Sequence record: NC_106514.1
DNA: 64,000 nucleotides
Direction: 5' to 3' (one strand)
Source: Escherichia phage vB_EcoS_ESCO40
Part shown: positions 1,416 through 59,039 of the stretch, piece after piece
Numbering within the stretch: the first letter of the stretch is position 1
How the letters are laid out: every line of letters starts with the position of its first letter
Position numbers and translations under genes: made by a program
The notes under the pieces: model-generated
What the model saw: only the letters and a program-made list of their open reading frames with translations
Databases searched by the model: none
What the model was told of the DNA's origin: nothing

Positions 1416-1931
1416 TTACTTCGCTTTACGTTTACGAGCTGGTTTAGCAGATTTACGAGCGGAATCGCCCGTGAATTTAATACCTACACCATAACACAGA
1501 GCACGAACGTTATCTTTGCTATATTCTACACCAAAGATATTTGGCTTAACAGAACCAAACTGTCCACGAGTATCACGCAATACATCTGCTGTTGGTTTAC
1601 GCTTCTGGTTAACTGCCTTCTCATAGTCTTTCATAGACATACCATTACGAGAGAACAATTCAGCCCCAGCGTTGAAGCTCAGGGAAACTGGGACAGATTT
1701 GTGGCCGTAATTTTCTACATACATAACCATTTTGTAGGATTTACGGGTAGCATTTTTAGCTTTAGGCTTCTGACGAATCGGAGCCGGATTATTCAGTGCT
1801 TGTGCAGCCTGAGCATCGGTAGGATGCTTACGCAGGTGACGTTCCAGGCGAGCTTTGCGATTAGCCTCAGTCTTCGGGAAAGTTTTAACTGCCGGAGCTG
1901 CTTGAGTTTTTGCGTTTTTCTGCTTAGCCAT
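1416..1931 (-). CDS. hypothetical highly basic protein (Lys/Arg-rich termini), possible nucleic-acid binding
   Basis: 171-aa ORF with own promoter at 1971-1999; N- and C-termini rich in K/R/A. Confidence 0.55.
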   Translation of the reverse strand: MAKQKNAKTQAAPAVKTFPKTEANRKARLERHLRKHPTDAQAAQALNNPAPIRQKPKAKNATRKSYKMVMYVENYGHKSVPVSLSFNAGAELFSRNGMSMKDYEKAVNQKRKPTADVLRDTRGQFGSVKPNIFGVEYSKDNVRALCYGVGIKFTGDSARKSAKPARKRKAK

Positions 1932-20000: not shown

Positions 20001-20411
20001 ATGACTACTCCAACTCAGTGGACTGATGAACTGTTCGAAAAAATGTCTTCCGAATACGTTGCTCGTATGGAGCAATTCCCAGAGGATGAACGTCCGAGTG
20101 TTAGTATGGAAATTGTTAGTGAAATTGCCCAAGAAAATGGTGTAACTCCGAACGGTTTTCGTATGAAGCTGACTAAAGCAGGTGTGTATATCAAGAAAGC
20201 TGCTGGTTCTGCTTCTAAATCTAGCGCATCTACTGGAGAAAAAGCTTCTGGTGGTTCTCGTACCTCCAAAGCCCAAGCTCATGCCGACCTGCGTTCAGCA
20301 TTCTCTGATGCTGGCTTAGCACCAGATTTTCTGGATGATGCAATTATCGACAAACTGACCGGTAAAGCGGCCGCTCATCTGGCAGAAGCAATCCGAGCTA
20401 TCACTAAGTAA
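20001..20411 (+). CDS. hypothetical protein with high-expression codon usage
   Basis: 136-aa ORF, Ala/Ser-rich middle, GGT/GCT/CTG/CGT-biased codons distinct from AT-rich neighbours. Confidence 0.55.
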   Translation: MTTPTQWTDELFEKMSSEYVARMEQFPEDERPSVSMEIVSEIAQENGVTPNGFRMKLTKAGVYIKKAAGSASKSSASTGEKASGGSRTSKAQAHADLRSAFSDAGLAPDFLDDAIIDKLTGKAAAHLAEAIRAITK

Positions 20412-21390: not shown

Positions 21391-22354
21391 TGTAAAAGGC
21401 TTTATTAGGCGTTGTCAAGAAGCATATTATCAAGGCATGTCTTTAATCTCTGATGAGGAGTATGATTGCCTGGTAAAACGCTTCCCGTTAGAAGAAGAGA
21501 TCGGGCCTAAAGGTGATATTCCACATCTGTATCGTATGTATTCTTTACAGAAAGTTTATTATAATCGTGGAGATAAACCCCCATTTAACCCCTTAGGTCA
21601 GGTAGAAACTGATAAGTTAGATGGTTGTGCAATTTCTCTGTTATATATTAACGGCGAATTTGTCCAAGCATTAACCCGTGGTAATGGTATTCTAGGGAAT
21701 GATGTCACAAGCAACGTAAGATTGCTGAACATTCCTAAAAAGATTTCCCAAAAAGTACCTACTCAAATCACTGGTGAAGTTCTAATTACAAAAGAAGTAG
21801 AAAATAAACGTAACTTTGCCTCTGGTGCTATTAACCTCAAAGATAGTGATGATTTCGTACAACGCATTGGAGAAGGCGGTTTAATCTTTGTTGCTTACGG
21901 TATCCAATGTTCTGCTGAATCTGTAGGTATTACAGAAGCATACTTAAAAGATATGCTTTGGCTAGAGAATGAGAACTTCTTAACAGTTGTTAATGTGCGT
22001 TCCTTCTTTAAATGGATTCCGACGGACGGTAAAGTTGTTCGTATTAATGACAACAACAAATTCTTCCGTGAAGGCTGGACTAATAAATTCCCTCGTGGAG
22101 CATTCGCTATTAAAGAGGATGAAGAAGGCGAAATTACAACTCTTACTAAAGTTGAATGGCAGGTAGGGGCTTCTGGTAAAGTAACTCCAGTTGGTTATTT
22201 CGAACCGGTAATTATTGATGATGCTACAATTGTTAAGGCGACTCTTAATAACGTTGATTATATTAACTCTCTCGATCTAGAGATCGGTTGCCAGATTCGA
22301 GTGATTCGTGCTGGTGGTGTAATCCCGTGCATAGTAGAGCGAGTATACGATTAA
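21380..22354 (+). CDS. ligA: NAD-dependent DNA ligase, N-terminal (adenylation/OB) half
   Basis: KLDG adenylation-lysine motif (ETDKLDGCAISLLY), TRGNGILGNDVT; ORF ends before the Zn-finger/HhH/BRCT part. Confidence 0.75.
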   Translation: MMNNVKGFIRRCQEAYYQGMSLISDEEYDCLVKRFPLEEEIGPKGDIPHLYRMYSLQKVYYNRGDKPPFNPLGQVETDKLDGCAISLLYINGEFVQALTRGNGILGNDVTSNVRLLNIPKKISQKVPTQITGEVLITKEVENKRNFASGAINLKDSDDFVQRIGEGGLIFVAYGIQCSAESVGITEAYLKDMLWLENENFLTVVNVRSFFKWIPTDGKVVRINDNNKFFREGWTNKFPRGAFAIKEDEEGEITTLTKVEWQVGASGKVTPVGYFEPVIIDDATIVKATLNNVDYINSLDLEIGCQIRVIRAGGVIPCIVERVYD

Positions 22355-22404
22355 TACATAACCCTTTGCTACCCATCTACCATATCGGAATTATAAAGTG
22401 GTTA

Positions 22405-22433
22405 TTGACATTTTCGCCGCTTAGGTATATACT
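22405..22433 (+). promoter_or_regulatory. sigma70-type promoter (TTGACA-17-TATACT) inside the ligase spacer
   Basis: TTGACA 22405-22410, TATACT 22428-22433; followed by an 8-codon mini-ORF (ATG GCG AGG GTA AGC AAA GTT AGT TAA). Confidence 0.5.
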
Positions 22434-22497
22434 ATTATCATTCAGTTGAGGGATAGAAAGTTATGGCGAGGGTAAGCAAAGTTAGTTAAAATTGTAG

Positions 22498-22526
22498 TTG
22501 CTAAATGCTTAAATACTTGCTATAAT
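22498..22526 (+). promoter_or_regulatory. sigma70-type early promoter (TTGCTA-17-TATAAT)
   Basis: TTGCTA 22498-22503, TATAAT 22521-22526, then ATTTATATAAATTGATAAGGAAG. Confidence 0.65.
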
Positions 22527-22556
22527 ATTTATATAAATTGATAAGGAAGAAATTTG

Positions 22557-23336
22557 ATGAAAATCGAAATTCCAACACAATGTCCCTCTTGTGGTTCTAA
22601 GCTAGATCTTGTCAACGGACAATTATTCTGTCGTAATAAGTCCAACTGTCCAGCGCAATCAAGTAAGTTAATTGAGAACTTCTGTACAAAAATGAAGTTA
22701 AAGGGCTTTGGCCCGAAAACTATTGAGAAGCTGGAGCTGACGAAGATTTCAGAACTATTTTACCTAACCGAAGAAGATTTGGTTAGAGCCGTGGGTAGCA
22801 AGGTTGCCGCTAAGTTAATTAGCGAATTAAATACTAAAGTTCGCGGAGACATTGACTTTGGTTCAGTTCTCGGTTCTTTAGGAATCCCTCTAATTGGAGA
22901 GGTTGCAGCAAAGAAATTGTCCCAAAATTGCACCAGTTTTCAAGATGTGAGAGCTGATGGCAAAGCTGGAGAAAATTATAAAGCCTGGCTAAATTCCCCA
23001 CAAGGCAAGGATGTTATCGAATTACCGTGGAAATTCACAACTGGTATTAAAGGTGCTAAAGCTGGGGTCATCATTACTGATGGTCTAGTAGCCCAGCCAA
23101 ATGGAATCACGGTGTGTATTACCGGGTCTTTGCAAGATTTTGCAAATAGAACGGATGCAACAAATTATTTAGAAGGTCTAGGGTATACTGTTAAAAAATC
23201 AGTTACCAAAGACGTTAAATACCTAATCTGTGAGGATGAATCGAAGCGTTCTTCCTCATCTTATAAGAAAGCCGAAACGAATGGGATAGAAATCCTGTCG
23301 ATTAAAGAACTATTGGAGAAAAATAATAATGTCTAA
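22557..23336 (+). CDS. ligA: NAD-dependent DNA ligase, C-terminal (zinc-finger/HhH/BRCT) half
   Basis: four-Cys zinc finger CPSCGSKLDLVNGQLFCRNKSNCPAQ and HhH-like KLKGFGPKTIEKL; ATG 22557 with AAGGAAG site. Confidence 0.7.
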   Translation: MKIEIPTQCPSCGSKLDLVNGQLFCRNKSNCPAQSSKLIENFCTKMKLKGFGPKTIEKLELTKISELFYLTEEDLVRAVGSKVAAKLISELNTKVRGDIDFGSVLGSLGIPLIGEVAAKKLSQNCTSFQDVRADGKAGENYKAWLNSPQGKDVIELPWKFTTGIKGAKAGVIITDGLVAQPNGITVCITGSLQDFANRTDATNYLEGLGYTVKKSVTKDVKYLICEDESKRSSSSYKKAETNGIEILSIKELLEKNNNV

Positions 23337-24096
23337 ACTGAACTGGAACGTAGAAGGTGTAACCGAGTCTCTGAAAGCAAAAGCCACTGCTCTGGGTGTT
23401 GATGTAATCTCTCAAGAACAAGTAGCTACTATCGCTGCTGAACTGGCCGCTGAAACTGGCAAAGACGTTACCGCTCGCTCTGTTGGCTCTAAGCTGCGTA
23501 AAGAAGGTTTCGAAGTACAGAAAGCTAACGAAGTACAGAAATCTCCGTGGACTCCTGAGCAGGAAGCTGAACTGGTTGATTTCCTGAACGCTCATGCTGG
23601 TCAGTATACTTATGCTGAAATCGCTGCTGCTGTAGCTGGTGGTCAATTTGGTGCTAAGCAGGTACAGGGTAAGATCCTGAGTCTGGAAATGACCGCTTCT
23701 GTTAAACCAACTGAAAAAGCTGCTGCTGTTCGTTCCTTCACTCCGGATGAAGAAACTGACTTTGTTAATCAGGTTGTTGCTGGTGCTACTATTGAAGCTA
23801 TCGCTGCTCACTTCGGTCGTAATATCAAGCAGATCCGTGGTAAAGCTCTGAGTCTGCTGCGTGAAGGTCGTATCGCTGCTATGCCGGTACAGGAAACTTC
23901 AAGTGCTAAAACCCGTGAAGATCTGTTAGAAGGTCTGGATCTGGCTAATATGACCGTTGCTGAGATCGCTGAGAAAACTGGTAAGTCTGAGCGCGGTGTT
24001 AAATCTATGCTGTCTCGTCGTGGTCTGGTTGCTAAGGACTATGATGGTGCCGCTAAGCGTGCTAAACTGGATGCAAAAGCTGCGGCTGCTGAATAA
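23329..24096 (+). CDS. abundant-type protein with four degenerate ~30-aa HTH-like repeats (candidate DNA-binding protein)
   Basis: repeats TIAAELAAETGKDVTARSVGSKLRKEG / TYAEIAAAVAGG..QGKILSLE / TIEAIAAHFGRNIKQIRGKALSLLREG / TVAEIAEKTGKSERGVKSMLSRRG; strongly biased E. coli-optimal codons. Confidence 0.55.
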   Translation: MSKLNWNVEGVTESLKAKATALGVDVISQEQVATIAAELAAETGKDVTARSVGSKLRKEGFEVQKANEVQKSPWTPEQEAELVDFLNAHAGQYTYAEIAAAVAGGQFGAKQVQGKILSLEMTASVKPTEKAAAVRSFTPDEETDFVNQVVAGATIEAIAAHFGRNIKQIRGKALSLLREGRIAAMPVQETSSAKTREDLLEGLDLANMTVAEIAEKTGKSERGVKSMLSRRGLVAKDYDGAAKRAKLDAKAAAAE

Positions 24097-24114
24097 TCTG
24101 GTAAATTAAACCTA

Positions 24115-24150
24115 AGGGGAGGGGGCTATGCTCCTTCCCCTTTTTGCATT
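24115..24150 (+). terminator. rho-independent terminator
   Basis: GGGGAGG...CCTTCCCC stem then TTTTTGCATTT. Confidence 0.6.
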
Positions 24151-24178
24151 TAGAAGGCACGAAAGCGTGCAAAGGAGA

Positions 24179-25651
24179 ATGACCTTGTTTAACGTGCAAG
24201 CTGTAGTGTTGAAGATGCTTCTAGCTTCAGAACAGAAGCAAATAGCATTGGAAACATTCTCAAAACTGCATAAAGATCATTTTAATGACGCTTTCTCCTC
24301 AATTTACCAAGCCGTCCAGAATTATTATAAAAAATATAACACAATGCCGTCCATTGACGCACTGATGCTTGAGGCTAATAGGAACGCCCGCCTTTCTCAA
24401 GCTCTAGTCGTTTTAGCTAACACTCAAATTCCAGAAGTTAGCATGGAACAGGCACTTGAAGTCTTAGAGGCCGAGTATACACAGGATTTATTCCTGAAGC
24501 TTCTAGAAACAGACGTGCTTCAAGATTTAACAATGCTGGATCAGGGAGAAATTCTTAACCGAGTTGCCTCCCTTCACTTAAAATTAGAAGAGAAAGTAAC
24601 GAATACTGGAAAAGTATTCAACGCAGATAACATGCGTATTTTCCAGAGAGAAGAAGATACCAAACTGAACTTAATCGCTCTTGGTATTTGTAATGAGTTC
24701 GATGCTCAAATTGGTTTAGCTCGCACAGAAACGTTACTGCTTGGTGGTTGGCGTGGTACTGGTAAATCCATTATCTGTTCAAACATACAGGTTCAGCAAT
24801 ATTTGAATGGAGATATTGCTCCATACTTCTCAATTGAGATGAAAGAACATGAAGTATTTAGACGTAATCTAGCCATGTTAGCTGGTGTATCAGCACTAGC
24901 AATGCGTAATAATACTCTAGAAGGTGCAGCTCTGTTGAGATTAGCCAGAACTAGAGCTAGGATGTTTAATGGTGGTGAGGAGCTTTTCGATAACTTCGTT
25001 AAACAGTACACAATGGCTAAGATGAGTGATTTCTACGATATGGAAAGTAAGCTAATAGAAGGATATGAGCTACATACTCCTATGATTATTGTTTATGATC
25101 CTGAGCTGTCTATTACAACAGTTGACGTAGAATTAAATAAATTAGTTGCTAGATATGGGGATAAAGTTACAGTAGCTTTACTGGACTATATTAACCAAAC
25201 CCGACTTCCAGACTCTAAAACCATTGATATGTATGACTGGAAAGAACAGATGGTTGTTAGCTCGTCTTTCAAATCTATCTGCCAGAAACATAACGTGGCT
25301 GGTGTAGCCCCTTACCAGATTGATCAAGATGGTAGAACACGTATGTCAAAGGGGATTCTTGATTCCGCAGACATGGCTGCTAATCTTAATGCTGCTAAAG
25401 CTGATAATGGTCAAGGTGCTATTATGTTTGACTTCGTTAAGACCCGTTCTTCTGATAGCGTGAAGTTTATGCCTAAAATGAACTGGGAAACCCTGCGAAT
25501 GGATAACACTACCAACCTAGCAATGGAAGATATATCTCAAATGGAAGCTGAGTTCGTTATCCCTATTGAGAAGGATAAGCCAGCTCAATCTAAACGTGCT
25601 AAGAAAGACAAAGCTGAAAATTCAACAGGTGAACAGGCCAGCGATATATGA
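24179..25651 (+). CDS. putative replicative helicase (RecA-fold P-loop ATPase)
   Basis: Walker A LLGGWRGTGKSI, DnaB-like C-terminal organisation, followed directly by primase; ORF-track start 24128 lies inside the upstream terminator so ATG 24179 is preferred. Confidence 0.6.
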   Translation: MTLFNVQAVVLKMLLASEQKQIALETFSKLHKDHFNDAFSSIYQAVQNYYKKYNTMPSIDALMLEANRNARLSQALVVLANTQIPEVSMEQALEVLEAEYTQDLFLKLLETDVLQDLTMLDQGEILNRVASLHLKLEEKVTNTGKVFNADNMRIFQREEDTKLNLIALGICNEFDAQIGLARTETLLLGGWRGTGKSIICSNIQVQQYLNGDIAPYFSIEMKEHEVFRRNLAMLAGVSALAMRNNTLEGAALLRLARTRARMFNGGEELFDNFVKQYTMAKMSDFYDMESKLIEGYELHTPMIIVYDPELSITTVDVELNKLVARYGDKVTVALLDYINQTRLPDSKTIDMYDWKEQMVVSSSFKSICQKHNVAGVAPYQIDQDGRTRMSKGILDSADMAANLNAAKADNGQGAIMFDFVKTRSSDSVKFMPKMNWETLRMDNTTNLAMEDISQMEAEFVIPIEKDKPAQSKRAKKDKAENSTGEQASDI

Positions 25652-31615: not shown

Positions 31616-31900
31616 ATGCTTACAGAGCCTGATGCTCACCAATTATTGGTCGGTTCCTCATTTATTTTGAATGAATCAACAATAGTTGATAATCCAAATA
31701 AATTGTCTAATAGACAACTGGCAGAATATCTAGGAATTTTAAGTCTACGAAATTATGCCGAATACAAGTTTACAAACGATCCTAGTTTGGACATACAATA
31801 TGTTCCAGTATGGATACCACGTTTAGTAATCGACACTAACCCACTAATCGCAATTAACAAATCGAAATTAATCTTTAAAGAGGAAATAAAATATGGCTAA
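31616..31900 (+). CDS. hypothetical protein (doubtful)
   Basis: 94-aa ORF without a convincing ribosome site; region may be a long leader for the next gene. Confidence 0.25.
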   Translation: MLTEPDAHQLLVGSSFILNESTIVDNPNKLSNRQLAEYLGILSLRNYAEYKFTNDPSLDIQYVPVWIPRLVIDTNPLIAINKSKLIFKEEIKYG

Positions 31901-32666
31901 GTCTTGGGGCGAAACTACTGGCGGTTCTAACGATAAAATCGAATTCCTGAAGTTCAACAACGGTATCACTCGTGTTCGTATCGTTTCTGGTGTTCTTCCA
32001 CGTTATGTCTATTGGCTGACTAATAAAGAGGGTAGCGTAGCTCCTTTCGAATGTCTCCGTTTTAACCGCGACAAAGAGAGCTTTGTTCGTGGTAAAGCTG
32101 ATCCGGTTCATGAGATGGGTTTCTTTGAGAAAGAGCTGGATAAAGATGGTAATCGCGTTCCGCTGAAACCGAAGAAAAACTATATCGCTTTTGTTATCGA
32201 CCGTTCTGATAACAAACTGAAAGTAATGGAAGTCAAGGCTACTATTCTGAAAGGCATCCAGTCTATCATGAAGCAGTTGAATCTGGCGACTCCGTTTGAT
32301 ATTGATATTTCTATTGAGAAGAAGGGTAAAGGTTTCGATACCGAGTATGATGTACAGCAGATTGCTGCTATGCAGTTCCAAATTAAGCTGCAAGATCCTA
32401 ACAGCGCAGAATCTAAGCAATATGCTGCGGATGTAGATCTGATCGGTGAAGCTATGTGTGATGAAGATGGCGACATCATCAAGTTCGAAAAAGTTCCTTC
32501 TCTGGAACAAACATATCCGGTTCCTACCTATGAAGAGCAGAAAGAAGCAATTCAAGCCTTCATGGAAGGTCGTGAGAATAAAGATGATGATGCCAAATCT
32601 GGTAACAGCAATGCTGGTTCCCAGAAAGGTATTGACCAAGAAGCTGCAAGCGATCTGGACGACTAA
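31893..32666 (+). CDS. abundant replication-module protein with acidic C-terminal tail; possible ssDNA-binding protein
   Basis: 257-aa ORF, AAGAGGA site, high-expression codon usage, C-terminus ...QEAASDLDD; assignment is inferential. Confidence 0.4.
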   Translation: MAKSWGETTGGSNDKIEFLKFNNGITRVRIVSGVLPRYVYWLTNKEGSVAPFECLRFNRDKESFVRGKADPVHEMGFFEKELDKDGNRVPLKPKKNYIAFVIDRSDNKLKVMEVKATILKGIQSIMKQLNLATPFDIDISIEKKGKGFDTEYDVQQIAAMQFQIKLQDPNSAESKQYAADVDLIGEAMCDEDGDIIKFEKVPSLEQTYPVPTYEEQKEAIQAFMEGRENKDDDAKSGNSNAGSQKGIDQEAASDLDD

Positions 32667-57662: not shown

Positions 57663-59039
57663 TTAAGATGCAGCGTAAGTACCAGATACAACGCCATTAT
57701 TAAAGTAACGTTGCAGGTTAACACGCTGAGTAACGTAGTATGCATCACGCTGTTTACCAGCTTGGCGCTCACGTTCAACAGTAACAGCACGCTGACGCGG
57801 CATTACGAAGTTATCTTTATAAACAATAACTGCGAACTCTGCTGAGTTAGCTTTAGCTGGGAAGAATTCAGAAACTACAACCGGCAGACCGTAAATACGA
57901 CCAACTTGACCTTGCAGTTTAACAGCATCGTTACCAACCTGTGCAACATCCTGCCATTCTTCATCTTCCAGCAGATCGTAGTAAGCATCCATAGATACGA
58001 TCAGTACCAGCTTGCTTAGTTTCAGACCATGACGGCCCAGTTTACGACGCAGTTTAGAGATAGTCTTAGCGGTTACCTTTACGGAACCGTCAGCTTTAGC
58101 TTCTGTGACAACCTTAGCACTATCTTCACTAGCAAGGGTCAACAGACCTTTCGGCTTACCAGAACCATCACCAGTCATAAATGCTTCTTCGATAGAAACA
58201 GCGTGTGCTTCAATCAGACGTTTACGCAGCAGCGGTAGCAGAGAGAAGATTGCATCTTCTTCAGTTTCATCAGTAATAAAGGACTTAGCAGCCAGTTTGT
58301 AGGTTTTAAAACTAATTTCAGTTAATGTACCTTTAACTTCGTTACCAGTAGTATTGTCAGTACCATAAGCGGAAGCATCTACCCAAGTAGCTTTACCAGC
58401 TTCTGGTTCAACCAGCATAGTAAGAATCTTACTAGACATCGGCAGTTCTTCGAACAGTGCGCCAACTACCAGTTCTTTCTGCAGGTCACGAATGATACGG
58501 GTAGAGAAAATAGTTTCGTAGTTTTCGCTAGAAACCTGAACTGAGGAAGAAGAGTTTACAGCTTTAAGGTGATTCTGACCATGTTCAGTTTCGAATACGC
58601 CTTTTTCCATTACATAAGATAACAGAACCAGTTTTTCAACTTCATCTTCAAAGGCTTCCTGAGTACCGTACAGTGCTTTAGCAACACTATCACCAACGAA
58701 GGAACGACCTTCACGAGCTGTCAGCAGGGATTTGATTTCGTCCTGAAGACCAACAATAGTTTCCTGCTGTTTTTCTACAGTTTGTGCAAACAGTTCTGCG
58801 CTCTTCTTAGATTTTTCATCCAGGGATTTAACCAGTTCCAGAGCTTCTTCCAGACGCTTACGGTCTTCGCCAACTGCTTTAGAAACCAGGTCATTCATAC
58901 GAGCCAGTTCTTTTTCTTCCTGCTCTTTACGCATACGTTCAGCTTCCTGAGCTTTCTGAGCAGCGGTCAGACCTTCCAGAGATTTAGCCAGATCACCCAG
59001 ACCAAGTTCTTCTTTCAGCTTATTAATATCAATAGTCAT
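57663..59039 (-). CDS. major capsid protein precursor with N-terminal scaffolding (delta) domain
   Basis: 458 aa; N-terminal ~150 aa Glu/Lys-rich coiled coil, high-expression codon usage, follows prohead protease gene. Confidence 0.8.
   Translation of the reverse strand: MTIDINKLKEELGLGDLAKSLEGLTAAQKAQEAERMRKEQEEKELARMNDLVSKAVGEDRKRLEEALELVKSLDEKSKKSAELFAQTVEKQQETIVGLQDEIKSLLTAREGRSFVGDSVAKALYGTQEAFEDEVEKLVLLSYVMEKGVFETEHGQNHLKAVNSSSSVQVSSENYETIFSTRIIRDLQKELVVGALFEELPMSSKILTMLVEPEAGKATWVDASAYGTDNTTGNEVKGTLTEISFKTYKLAAKSFITDETEEDAIFSLLPLLRKRLIEAHAVSIEEAFMTGDGSGKPKGLLTLASEDSAKVVTEAKADGSVKVTAKTISKLRRKLGRHGLKLSKLVLIVSMDAYYDLLEDEEWQDVAQVGNDAVKLQGQVGRIYGLPVVVSEFFPAKANSAEFAVIVYKDNFVMPRQRAVTVERERQAGKQRDAYYVTQRVNLQRYFNNGVVSGTYAAS

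What the first reader, a model, noticed from the sequence alone, without database searches (positions are those of the whole stretch)
23329..24096. High-expression protein built from four HTH-like repeats
The 255-aa ORF has four ~30-residue repeats, each resembling a helix-turn-helix unit (T-x-x-E-I-A-x-x-x-G-x...K-x-L-S-L...G). Its codon usage is strikingly E. coli-optimal (GGT, GCT, CTG, CGT, AAA, GAA), unlike the AT-rich neighbours, implying very high expression. This is the profile of an abundant DNA-coating or transcription-switch protein; in T5 biology an abundant ~29-kDa DNA-binding protein (D5) controls the early-to-late switch.
Basis: inference. Interest (0 to 1): 0.45.

Follow-up and report, generated by a model that had tools for sequence, protein, structure and literature searches.

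The report
Phage T5 D5 DNA-binding protein gene

Summary
The ORF at 23329..24096 (+) is real: 255 aa, 27.1 kDa. Its exact protein sequence is deposited as "D5 protein" of Escherichia phage vB_EcoS_ESCO40. It differs at 2 of 255 residues from T5 D5 (Swiss-Prot D5_BPT5).

Both observations hold, with corrections. An AlphaFold2 model (pLDDT 92.8) shows four tandem three-helix helix-turn-helix modules plus a C-terminal helix. The module period is about 55-65 residues, and the ~30-residue motif is the helix 2-turn-helix 3 core. Sequence statistics support repetition only for units 2 and 3 (profile-profile probability 96%). Units 1 and 4 are supported mainly by the model.

Codon bias is the highest of 54 ORFs in the window (CAI 0.714 against a median of 0.26), above the major head protein (0.654). 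It is not driven by GC3.

The gene is the last cistron of a ligB-D5 unit. Two sigma-70-like promoters lie upstream, at the positions of the annotated T5 promoters P-K28b and P-K28a, and a hairpin terminator follows. The order ligase-D5-helicase-primase-polymerase is kept in distant T5-like phages.

D5 is a known abundant dsDNA-binding protein that affects replication and late gene expression. A 2026 preprint reports it as a retron trigger. It is not a sigma factor, an SSB or a transposase. Verdict: already known, low interest.

The parts
22405..22433 (+). Sigma-70-type promoter, TTGACA-17-TATACT; lies where T5 annotates early promoter P-K28b
   Evidence: Consensus scan, 11/12 match. The T5 annotation puts P-K28b at locus L001 5057-5131, which is window 22385-22459 by the offset of the matched gene.
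22498..22526 (+). Sigma-70-type promoter, TTGCTA-17-TATAAT with an extended -10 TG; lies where T5 annotates early promoter P-K28a
   Evidence: Consensus scan, 10/12 match plus TG. The T5 annotation puts P-K28a at L001 5150-5224, which is window 22478-22552.
22554..23336 (+). ligB (NAD-dependent DNA ligase subunit B), the upstream cistron of the same unit; its stop overlaps the D5 start by 8 nt
   Evidence: ORF list; PHROG 3498 at E 3.5e-136; T5 annotation. CAI is only 0.229.
23315..23318 (+). Candidate Shine-Dalgarno GGAG, 10 nt upstream of the D5 ATG, followed by an A-rich spacer
   Evidence: Read directly from the sequence. Its function is inferred.
23329..24096 (+). D5 coding sequence (255 aa plus stop)
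23359..23502 (+). HTH unit 1 (residues 11-58); third helix ARSVGSKLRK, net charge +4, 88% mean identity across 39 homologues
   Evidence: AlphaFold2 model; conservation and charge.
23554..23682 (+). HTH unit 2 (residues 76-118), Myb-like, preceded by W74-T-P-E; third helix AKQVQGKILS
   Evidence: hhalign of unit 2 against unit 3 gives 96% probability; weak Pfam Myb_DNA-binding match at residues 71-100.
23743..23862 (+). HTH unit 3 (residues 139-178), preceded by F136-T-P-D-E; third helix IKQIRGKALSLLR
   Evidence: weak Pfam HTH_23 match at residues 151-184.
23911..24021 (+). HTH unit 4 (residues 195-231); first helix poorly formed in the model; third helix ERGVKSMLSRR. This stretch gives the Sigma70_r4_2 hit.
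   Evidence: Pfam PF08281, 29.1 bits, residues 204-230.
24046..24090 (+). C-terminal basic, Ala-rich helix (residues 240-254), net charge +3
   Evidence: A role in self-association or DNA contact is only a guess.
24114..24150 (+). Intrinsic terminator: a 13-bp G+C-rich hairpin followed by a T-run, 18 nt after the D5 stop
   Evidence: Terminator scan; RNA fold -25.6 kcal/mol, z = -2.5.

Best explanation
This is the orthologue of bacteriophage T5 early gene D5.

Shown here:
- The gene is the second cistron of a ligB-D5 stretch. Two sigma-70-like promoters lie upstream, at the positions of T5 P-K28b and P-K28a, and a stable hairpin terminator follows.
- Its codon usage is that of very highly expressed E. 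coli genes. The co-transcribed ligB has ordinary phage codon usage.
- The protein is predicted to consist of four tandem three-helix HTH modules of the Myb/homeodomain/GcrA-DBD type, plus a basic C-terminal helix.
- In every module the third helix is the most conserved part and is positively charged. The first helix is acidic and variable.

Inferred:
- The product is made in much larger amounts than the enzymes encoded around it.
- Each module places its third helix in the major groove, so that one monomer contacts several adjacent stretches of duplex DNA without strong sequence preference.
- Many monomers coat replicating phage DNA.

- gpD5 is a ~29-kDa protein that binds double-stranded DNA cooperatively.
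- D5 mutants are defective in DNA replication, in shut-off of early genes and in turn-on of late genes.
- gpD5 bound to duplex DNA restricts T5 DNA polymerase action at nicks.

The most likely mechanism is therefore stoichiometric, chromatin-like coating of phage duplex DNA. This coating changes the template state for host RNA polymerase and for T5 polymerase. A classical site-specific activator is less likely.
For: Identity:
- The exact sequence is 'D5 protein' of phage vB_EcoS_ESCO40, clustered with D5_BPT5.
- 442 phage records carry the gene, 419 of them at 95-99% identity.
- PHROG 323, D5-like, matches at E 2.4e-71.
- There are 2 aa differences from T5, and 15 of the 18 nt differences are at codon position 3, which indicates purifying selection.
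- The residue numbering matches the T5 D5 of preprint 10.64898/2026.07.11.737809.

Size: 27.1 kDa, against the ~29 kDa recalled from older literature for gpD5.

Architecture:
- AlphaFold2 pLDDT is 92.8, with four three-helix units.
- Mean identity of the third helices is 0.70-0.88 and their charge is +2 to +4. The first helices carry -3 to -4 in units 2-4.
- The BFVD model of Vibrio phage X1 'D5 protein' superposes over the full length, TM 0.79-0.82.

Expression:
- CAI 0.714 is the top of 54 ORFs and Nc is 31.2.
- The other high-CAI genes are the major head protein, the SSB and another DNA-binding protein, all needed in stoichiometric amounts.
- Promoters and terminator.
- The D5 homologue was among the proteins with the highest spectral counts in virion preparations of phage phiR2-01, although it is not a T5 virion component (PMC8624392).

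Function:
- The title of McCorquodale et al. [quoted passage not shown]
- The preprint reports that T5 D5 is mildly toxic on its own and is predicted to bind retron msDNA.

Conserved context: PC4-like, ligA, ligB, D5, DnaB helicase, primase and PolA occur in this order in a marine contig (53% identity) and in Vibrio phage D259 (50%).
Against: - No DNA-binding, abundance or timing measurement was or could be made here.
- The four-module DNA-contact model is an inference from a predicted structure. The pTM of 0.51 means the relative arrangement of the modules is uncertain.
- The overall pI is 6.3 and the net charge is about -1, which is unusual for a non-specific DNA-coating protein.
- Sequence statistics support repeat homology firmly only for units 2 and 3.
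- In the marine relative L003 the D5 homologue shows no stronger codon bias than its neighbours (Nc 41.5 against 34-47). In L005 it is among the most biased (38.2). The expression signature is therefore not demonstrably universal.
- The primary 1979-1983 papers were not available to read.
Confidence: 0.9

Rival explanations
1. It is a phage-encoded sigma factor, or a sigma-region-4-like RNA polymerase subunit, that redirects host core RNA polymerase to late promoters. Some records annotate it as 'RNA polymerase sigma factor' or 'sigma-70 region 4 domain-containing protein'.
For: - Pfam Sigma70_r4_2 scores 29.1 bits, above its 25.7 cut-off, at E 7.5e-7.
- Phage Shivani and a Shigella record carry this annotation.
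- D5 mutants affect late gene expression, according to the title cited.
Against: - The hit covers only 27 residues (204-230), which is the generic HTH of unit 4.
- No sigma region 2 or full region 3 was found. The only Sigma70_r3 match covers 21 residues at 20.5 bits, below its 25.3-bit cut-off.
- NCBIfam TIGR02937 scores 15 bits against a cut-off of 42.9.
- The model is four equivalent HTH modules, not a sigma architecture.
- T5 transcription of all three gene classes uses the sigma-70 holoenzyme (PMC7472727).
Confidence: 0.03
2. It is a sequence-specific Myb- or GcrA-like transcription factor. It recognises defined sites at T5 late or early promoters, possibly together with sigma-70 as GcrA does, and switches them directly. 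It does not coat DNA.
For: - Swiss-Prot names it 'Putative transcription factor D5'.
- The third helices are highly conserved.
- The mechanism of the early-to-late switch is still described as unknown.
Against: - The extreme codon bias, above that of the major capsid protein, points to stoichiometric rather than regulatory amounts.
- Older biochemistry, from memory, describes cooperative and non-specific duplex binding.
- GcrA is not detectable by sequence. It does not appear in the PDB profile search, and only 1 of 38 units hits PF07750, at E 0.022.
- There is no equivalent of GcrA's C-terminal sigma-binding domain.
Confidence: 0.06
3. It is a single-stranded DNA-binding protein of the replisome, as annotated in Klebsiella phage vB_Kpn_3.
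For: - It sits in the replication module between the ligase and the helicase.
- It has one such annotation.
- Its expression signature is high, like that of an SSB.
Against: - The model is entirely helical, with no OB fold.
- A separate gene at 31893..32666 matches the phage SSB family PHROG 1607 at E 2.3e-106.
- A PC4-like ssDNA-binding gene is also present upstream in T5 and its relatives.
Confidence: 0.01

Closest known systems
Bacteriophage T5 protein D5 (Swiss-Prot D5_BPT5; T5.118 / T5p116 / ORF109), PHROG 323
   Same: - 253 of 255 residues are identical and the length is the same.
- It has the same position between ligB and the replicative helicase.
- The same promoters lie upstream and the same terminator lies downstream.
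- The exact sequence is already deposited for phage vB_EcoS_ESCO40.
   Different: Only T34A and A206V relative to T5, plus 16 synonymous nucleotide changes.
GcrA DNA-binding domain (Caulobacter crescentus, PDB 5yiu)
   Same: - It is a small three-helix domain with a basic third helix.
   Different: - GcrA has one such domain plus a C-terminal sigma-70-binding domain. D5 has four modules and no such domain.
- The similarity is not detectable by sequence profiles.
- GcrA is a regulatory factor, not a bulk DNA-binding protein.
Myb/SANT repeat arrays (c-Myb R1-R3, SNAPC4, Timeless DNA-binding domain)
   Same: - They are tandem arrays of ~50-residue three-helix modules.
- Each begins with an aromatic-T/S-x-E-E motif, and the third helix acts as the DNA reader.
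   Different: - The three regularly spaced tryptophans that define Myb repeats are absent. D5 has only W6 and W74.
- Pfam Myb_DNA-binding scores 17.6 bits, below its 24.4 cut-off.
- Myb proteins are eukaryotic and sequence-specific.
Bipartite HTH DNA-binding domains of Tc3/mariner and IS630 transposases, and paired/POU domains
   Different: - D5 has no catalytic domain.
- D5 has four modules rather than two.
- The E-values are weak (0.1-0.5).

Membership tests
T5 D5 / PHROG 323 (D5-like protein of Demerecviridae) | Full-length sequence homology to T5 D5 | tested here: met
   - PHROG 323 matches at E 2.4e-71 over residues 1-253.
- 97.7% nucleotide identity to T5.
- 2 aa differences from T5.
- It is in the same 90% cluster as D5_BPT5.
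T5 D5 / PHROG 323 (D5-like protein of Demerecviridae) | Position in the replication module: ligA, ligB, D5, DnaB-like helicase, primase, PolA | tested here: met
   The order is seen in the window ORFs, in T5 and Gostya9 annotation, in the marine contig L003 and in Vibrio phage D259 L005.
T5 D5 / PHROG 323 (D5-like protein of Demerecviridae) | Polypeptide of about 29 kDa (historical gel estimate, from memory) | tested here: met
   The predicted mass is 27.1 kDa. The neighbouring helicase, which one record labels D5, is 507 aa, roughly 57 kDa by my estimate.
T5 D5 / PHROG 323 (D5-like protein of Demerecviridae) | Cooperative binding to double-stranded DNA | not testable with these tools
   Only indirect support: four predicted HTH modules with conserved basic third helices.
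T5 D5 / PHROG 323 (D5-like protein of Demerecviridae) | Made in large amounts after infection | tested here: inconclusive
   - Codon bias is the highest in the window.
- The homologue was abundant in mass spectrometry of phiR2-01 preparations.
- There is no direct measurement for this phage.
Sigma-70 family sigma factors | Region 2 (core binding, -10 recognition) together with region 4 | tested here: not met
   - No Sigma70_r2 hit was found at E up to 10.
- The Sigma70_r4_2 hit covers only residues 204-230.
- TIGR02937 scores 15 bits against a cut-off of 42.9.
Myb/SANT domain (Pfam PF00249) | Score above the Pfam gathering threshold, and three regularly spaced Trp/aromatic residues per repeat | tested here: not met
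   - The score is 17.6 bits against 24.4.
- Only 9 of 38 unit sequences hit PF00249 at E up to 1; the best E is 0.0016.
- The protein contains only W6 and W74.
Myb/SANT domain (Pfam PF00249) | Three-helix fold with HTH formed by helices 2 and 3 | tested here: met
   [not shown]
GcrA (Pfam PF07750) | Sequence match to the GcrA family, including the C-terminal sigma-70-interacting domain | tested here: not met
   - There was no PF07750 hit for the whole protein.
- Only 1 of 38 units hits, at E 0.022.
- 5yiu is absent from the profile search of PDB sequences.
- Only the fold of the DNA-binding domain matches.
Single-stranded DNA-binding proteins (OB fold) | OB-fold beta barrel | tested here: not met
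   The model is all-helical. A separate SSB gene lies at 31893..32666.
IS630/Tc1-mariner transposases | DDE/DDD catalytic domain after the HTH region | tested here: not met
   - NF033545 scores 12.9 bits against a cut-off of 100.
- The four HTH modules and the terminal helix occupy all 255 residues.

The most novel reading that the evidence does not exclude
D5 might be more than an inert coat. It could be a four-module, GcrA/Myb-like protein that forms a chromatin-like filament on phage DNA and also contacts the sigma-70 holoenzyme, as GcrA does. In that case it would itself be the unresolved T5 early-to-late switch. The same DNA-reading surface would be what retron-type defences have evolved to sense.
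Probability: 0.1. Interest if true: 0.5.

Novelty: already known. Interest (0 to 1): 0.1.

Why it matters
As a discovery it matters little. The gene is annotated in hundreds of T5-like genomes, and the protein has been characterised biochemically since 1979.

Three points have modest value:
- The analysis settles an annotation inconsistency. D5 is this 27-kDa ORF, not the adjacent helicase, and it is not a sigma factor or an SSB.
- It gives an explicit four-module HTH description, with conserved basic third helices.
- It shows that D5 is the most codon-optimised gene in this 64-kb window, above the major capsid protein. That fits a stoichiometric, chromatin-like role.

The mechanism by which D5 affects late transcription is still open. 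D5 has recently gained interest as a reported trigger of a type IX retron.

Tried and rejected
- Single-sequence self-comparison (BLOSUM62, 28-residue ungapped windows) did not exceed shuffled controls. Repeat homology had to be shown with family profiles and the model.
- The whole-protein profile against PDB sequences gave only a marginal hit to a designed homeodomain (E 0.007).
- The DRT4 paper on a 'phage-encoded DNA binding protein' concerns T5 ORF55, not D5. The T5 pre-early gene preprint concerns A2. The BF23 paper gave no expression data for D5.
- The 1974 and 1979 primary papers (PMC355262, PMC353123) are not held.
- A literature search for T5.118, T5p116 or gpD5 returned only the phiR2-01 paper and unrelated hits.
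- Nc in two distant relatives did not consistently single out the D5 homologue.
- I did not use the representative-library search, the second structure job or the metagenome and genome scans. The identity was already unambiguous.
Full report
**The observation**

The ORF at 23329..24096 on the + strand is present as described. It starts with ATG, ends with TAA, and encodes 255 aa of 27.1 kDa with pI 6.3. The protein is rich in Ala (17%), Glu, Lys, Val and Gly.

**Identity**

- Megablast against 50,697 phage records found the gene in 442 records, 419 of them at 95-99% identity. All are T5-like phages of Escherichia, Salmonella, Shigella, Klebsiella and Yersinia.
- The best hits are Gostya9 (98.3%) and T5 (97.7%).
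- The exact protein sequence is deposited as "D5 protein [Escherichia phage vB_EcoS_ESCO40]". Its 90% cluster includes Swiss-Prot D5_BPT5, "Putative transcription factor D5", under accessions AAS77164, AAU05255 and AAX12046 from the three T5 genome records.
- Against T5 st0 there are 18 nucleotide differences. Fifteen are at third codon positions, and only two change amino acids (T34A, A206V).
- PHROG 323, "transcriptional regulator, D5-like", matches end to end at E 2.4e-71.
- A 2026 preprint on T5 D5 describes a 255-residue HTH protein and escape mutations G53D, W74*, V149I and G232D. G53, W74, V149 and G232 are all present at those positions here.

Annotation across records is inconsistent:
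- It is variously called hypothetical protein, DNA-binding protein, transcription factor, RNA polymerase sigma factor or single-stranded DNA-binding protein.
- The helicase is 507 aa, roughly 57 kDa by my estimate. Historical gpD5 is about 29 kDa, a figure I give from memory. The 27-kDa ORF is therefore the better assignment, as most records and the preprint also assume.

**The repeats**

An AlphaFold2 model built from 39 family members has mean pLDDT 92.8 and pTM 0.51. It contains four three-helix modules and a C-terminal helix:

| Element | Helix 1 | Helix 2 | Helix 3 |
|---|---|---|---|
| Unit 1 | 11-22 | 29-43 | 49-58 |
| Unit 2 | 76-88 | 95-101 | 109-118 |
| Unit 3 | 139-150 | 155-162 | 166-178 |
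| Unit 4 | about 195-207, poorly formed | 210-217 | 221-231 |
| C-terminal helix | 240-254 | | |

- The period is therefore about 55-65 residues.
- On the single sequence, the best ungapped self-match (33) lies within the range of shuffled sequences (mean 26.6, sd 4.0, max 39).
- With family profiles, units 2 and 3 are clearly homologous (hhalign probability 96%, E 2e-9). Units 3/4 reach 64%, 1/4 reach 30% and 1/2 reach 14%.
- In every unit the third helix is the most conserved element (mean identity 0.70-0.88 across 39 homologues) and carries a charge of +2 to +4. The first helices of units 2-4 carry -3 to -4, and the first helices of units 1 and 3 are the least conserved (0.38 and 0.41). This is the usual signature of a DNA-reading helix.

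**Fold comparison**

- Foldseek of the whole model against the PDB gave nothing at E <= 0.001.
- A profile of units 2 and 3 finds Myb-type repeats only marginally: SNAPC4 at 1.5e-4, Timeless at 1.6e-3 and MYB21 at 2e-3. It does not find GcrA.
- Per-unit Pfam hits are scattered over HTH_23, Myb_DNA-bind_6, Myb_DNA-binding and HTH_Tnp_1.
- In BFVD, the model of Vibrio phage X1 "D5 protein" superposes over the full length (TM 0.79-0.82).
- I conclude that the modules are generic Myb/homeodomain-like HTH domains. They are not members of a specific curated family other than D5 itself.

**Codon usage**

This is the highest of 54 ORFs of at least 100 aa (median 0.26, z = 4.3).
- The next highest are the major head protein (0.654), the SSB at 31893..32666 (0.546), a PHROG 1725 DNA-binding protein at 20001..20411 (0.541) and an unknown protein at 1416..1931 (0.526).
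- Nc is 31.2 for D5 and 33.4 for the head protein.
- Raw counts do not depend on any weight table. Leu is CTG in 18 of 19 codons, against 21 of 135 in the four neighbouring genes. Ile is ATC in 9 of 10, against 24 of 104. Ala is GCT in 38 of 44, Gly is GGT in 17 of 19, and Arg is CGT in 10 of 12 with no AGA or AGG.
- GC3 (0.33) equals that of the neighbours. The higher overall GC (47.5% against 39.1%) reflects amino-acid composition, not third-position GC.

**Expression context**

- Two sigma-70-type promoters lie upstream of ligB. One is at 22405-22433 (TTGACA-17-TATACT) and one at 22498-22526 (TTGCTA-17-TATAAT with TG). They sit at the positions of the annotated T5 promoters P-K28b and P-K28a.
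- No further promoter-like site on the + strand precedes D5.
- The D5 ATG overlaps the ligB stop by 8 nt, and a GGAG lies 10 nt upstream.
- Eighteen nucleotides after the D5 stop there is a 13-bp G+C-rich hairpin followed by a T-run, at 24114-24150 (-25.6 kcal/mol).
- ligB (CAI 0.229) and D5 (CAI 0.714) thus appear to share a transcript but differ sharply in codon adaptation. I infer that output is set at the level of translation.

**Conservation**

- The word-indexed search returned 738 relatives at E <= 0.001. The 120 listed are mostly 241-267 aa, apart from two partial sequences.
- The gene order PC4-like, ligA, ligB, D5, DnaB, primase, PolA is retained in a marine contig (53% identity) and in Vibrio phage D259 (50%).
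- Residues in all four third helices are invariant across 39 homologues.
- Codon bias of the homologue stands out in L005 (Nc 38.2, among the lowest in that locus) but not in the AT-rich marine contig L003.

**Function**

- The available literature gives the title of McCorquodale et al. [quoted passage not shown]
- A 2025 paper summarises D5 as implicated in replication and in suppression of early gene expression.
- The D5 homologue was among the proteins with the highest spectral counts in phiR2-01 virion preparations, although it is not a T5 virion protein.
- The 2026 preprint reports that T5 D5 is mildly toxic, is predicted to bind msDNA through an HTH, and triggers retron-Kva2.
- From memory, and not verified here: Rice et al. 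1979 and Fujimura & Roop 1983 describe cooperative duplex-DNA binding and effects on T5 DNA polymerase at nicks.
- The mechanism of the T5 early-to-late switch is still described as unknown (PMC7472727).
- I therefore favour a stoichiometric duplex-DNA coating protein whose four HTH modules each use the third helix. The site-specific-factor, sigma-factor and SSB readings are much less likely, for the reasons listed under the rival explanations.

**Verdict**

Noticed in passing
window 24114-24190: The helicase start used in T5-type annotation (ATG 24128) lies in the loop of the D5 terminator hairpin, with its GGAGG in the 5' arm of the stem. Helicase homologues from a marine contig and from Vibrio phage D259 align only from residue ~19 onward. 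The true start is therefore probably ATG 24179 or TTG 24185, the latter 7 nt after AAGGAG at 24172-24177. That would make the terminator fully intergenic.
   Followed up: partly
window 25648-25651 (helicase/primase junction): The helicase and primase ORFs overlap directly here. T5 and Gostya9 carry a 534-bp HNH homing-endonuclease gene (T5p118 / F-TflVIII) between them. This phage has the endonuclease-free allele.
   Followed up: no
window 1416-1931 (-), 20001-20411 (+), 31893-32666 (+), 57663-59039 (-): These are the other strongly codon-adapted genes in the window: a PHROG 4516 protein of unknown function (CAI 0.526), a PHROG 1725 'DNA binding protein' (0.541; its Vibrio phage counterpart has a weak Phage_T5_A2 Pfam hit), the SSB (0.546) and the major head protein (0.654). 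The unknown 171-aa protein is the one without an explanation for its high bias.
   Followed up: partly
public records matching window 23329-24096: Near-identical copies (98-99%) are filed under 'Listeria phage LM 4-14-1', under partial Enterococcus faecalis proteins, and under Shigella and Salmonella genome assemblies. These are most likely contamination or mislabelled T5-like phage sequence.
   Followed up: no
L003 / L004 (marine T5-like contigs), e.g. L003 1-61, 2063-2293, 10144-10509: The marine relative encodes a ribosomal protein L33 homologue, a PP-binding (acyl-carrier-like) protein, and a SET-domain protein inserted between the helicase and the primase.
   Followed up: no
window 22354-22554: The NAD-dependent ligase is split into ligA and ligB by a 200-bp spacer that holds the two promoter-like sites. 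ligB and D5 could therefore be transcribed independently of ligA.
   Followed up: no
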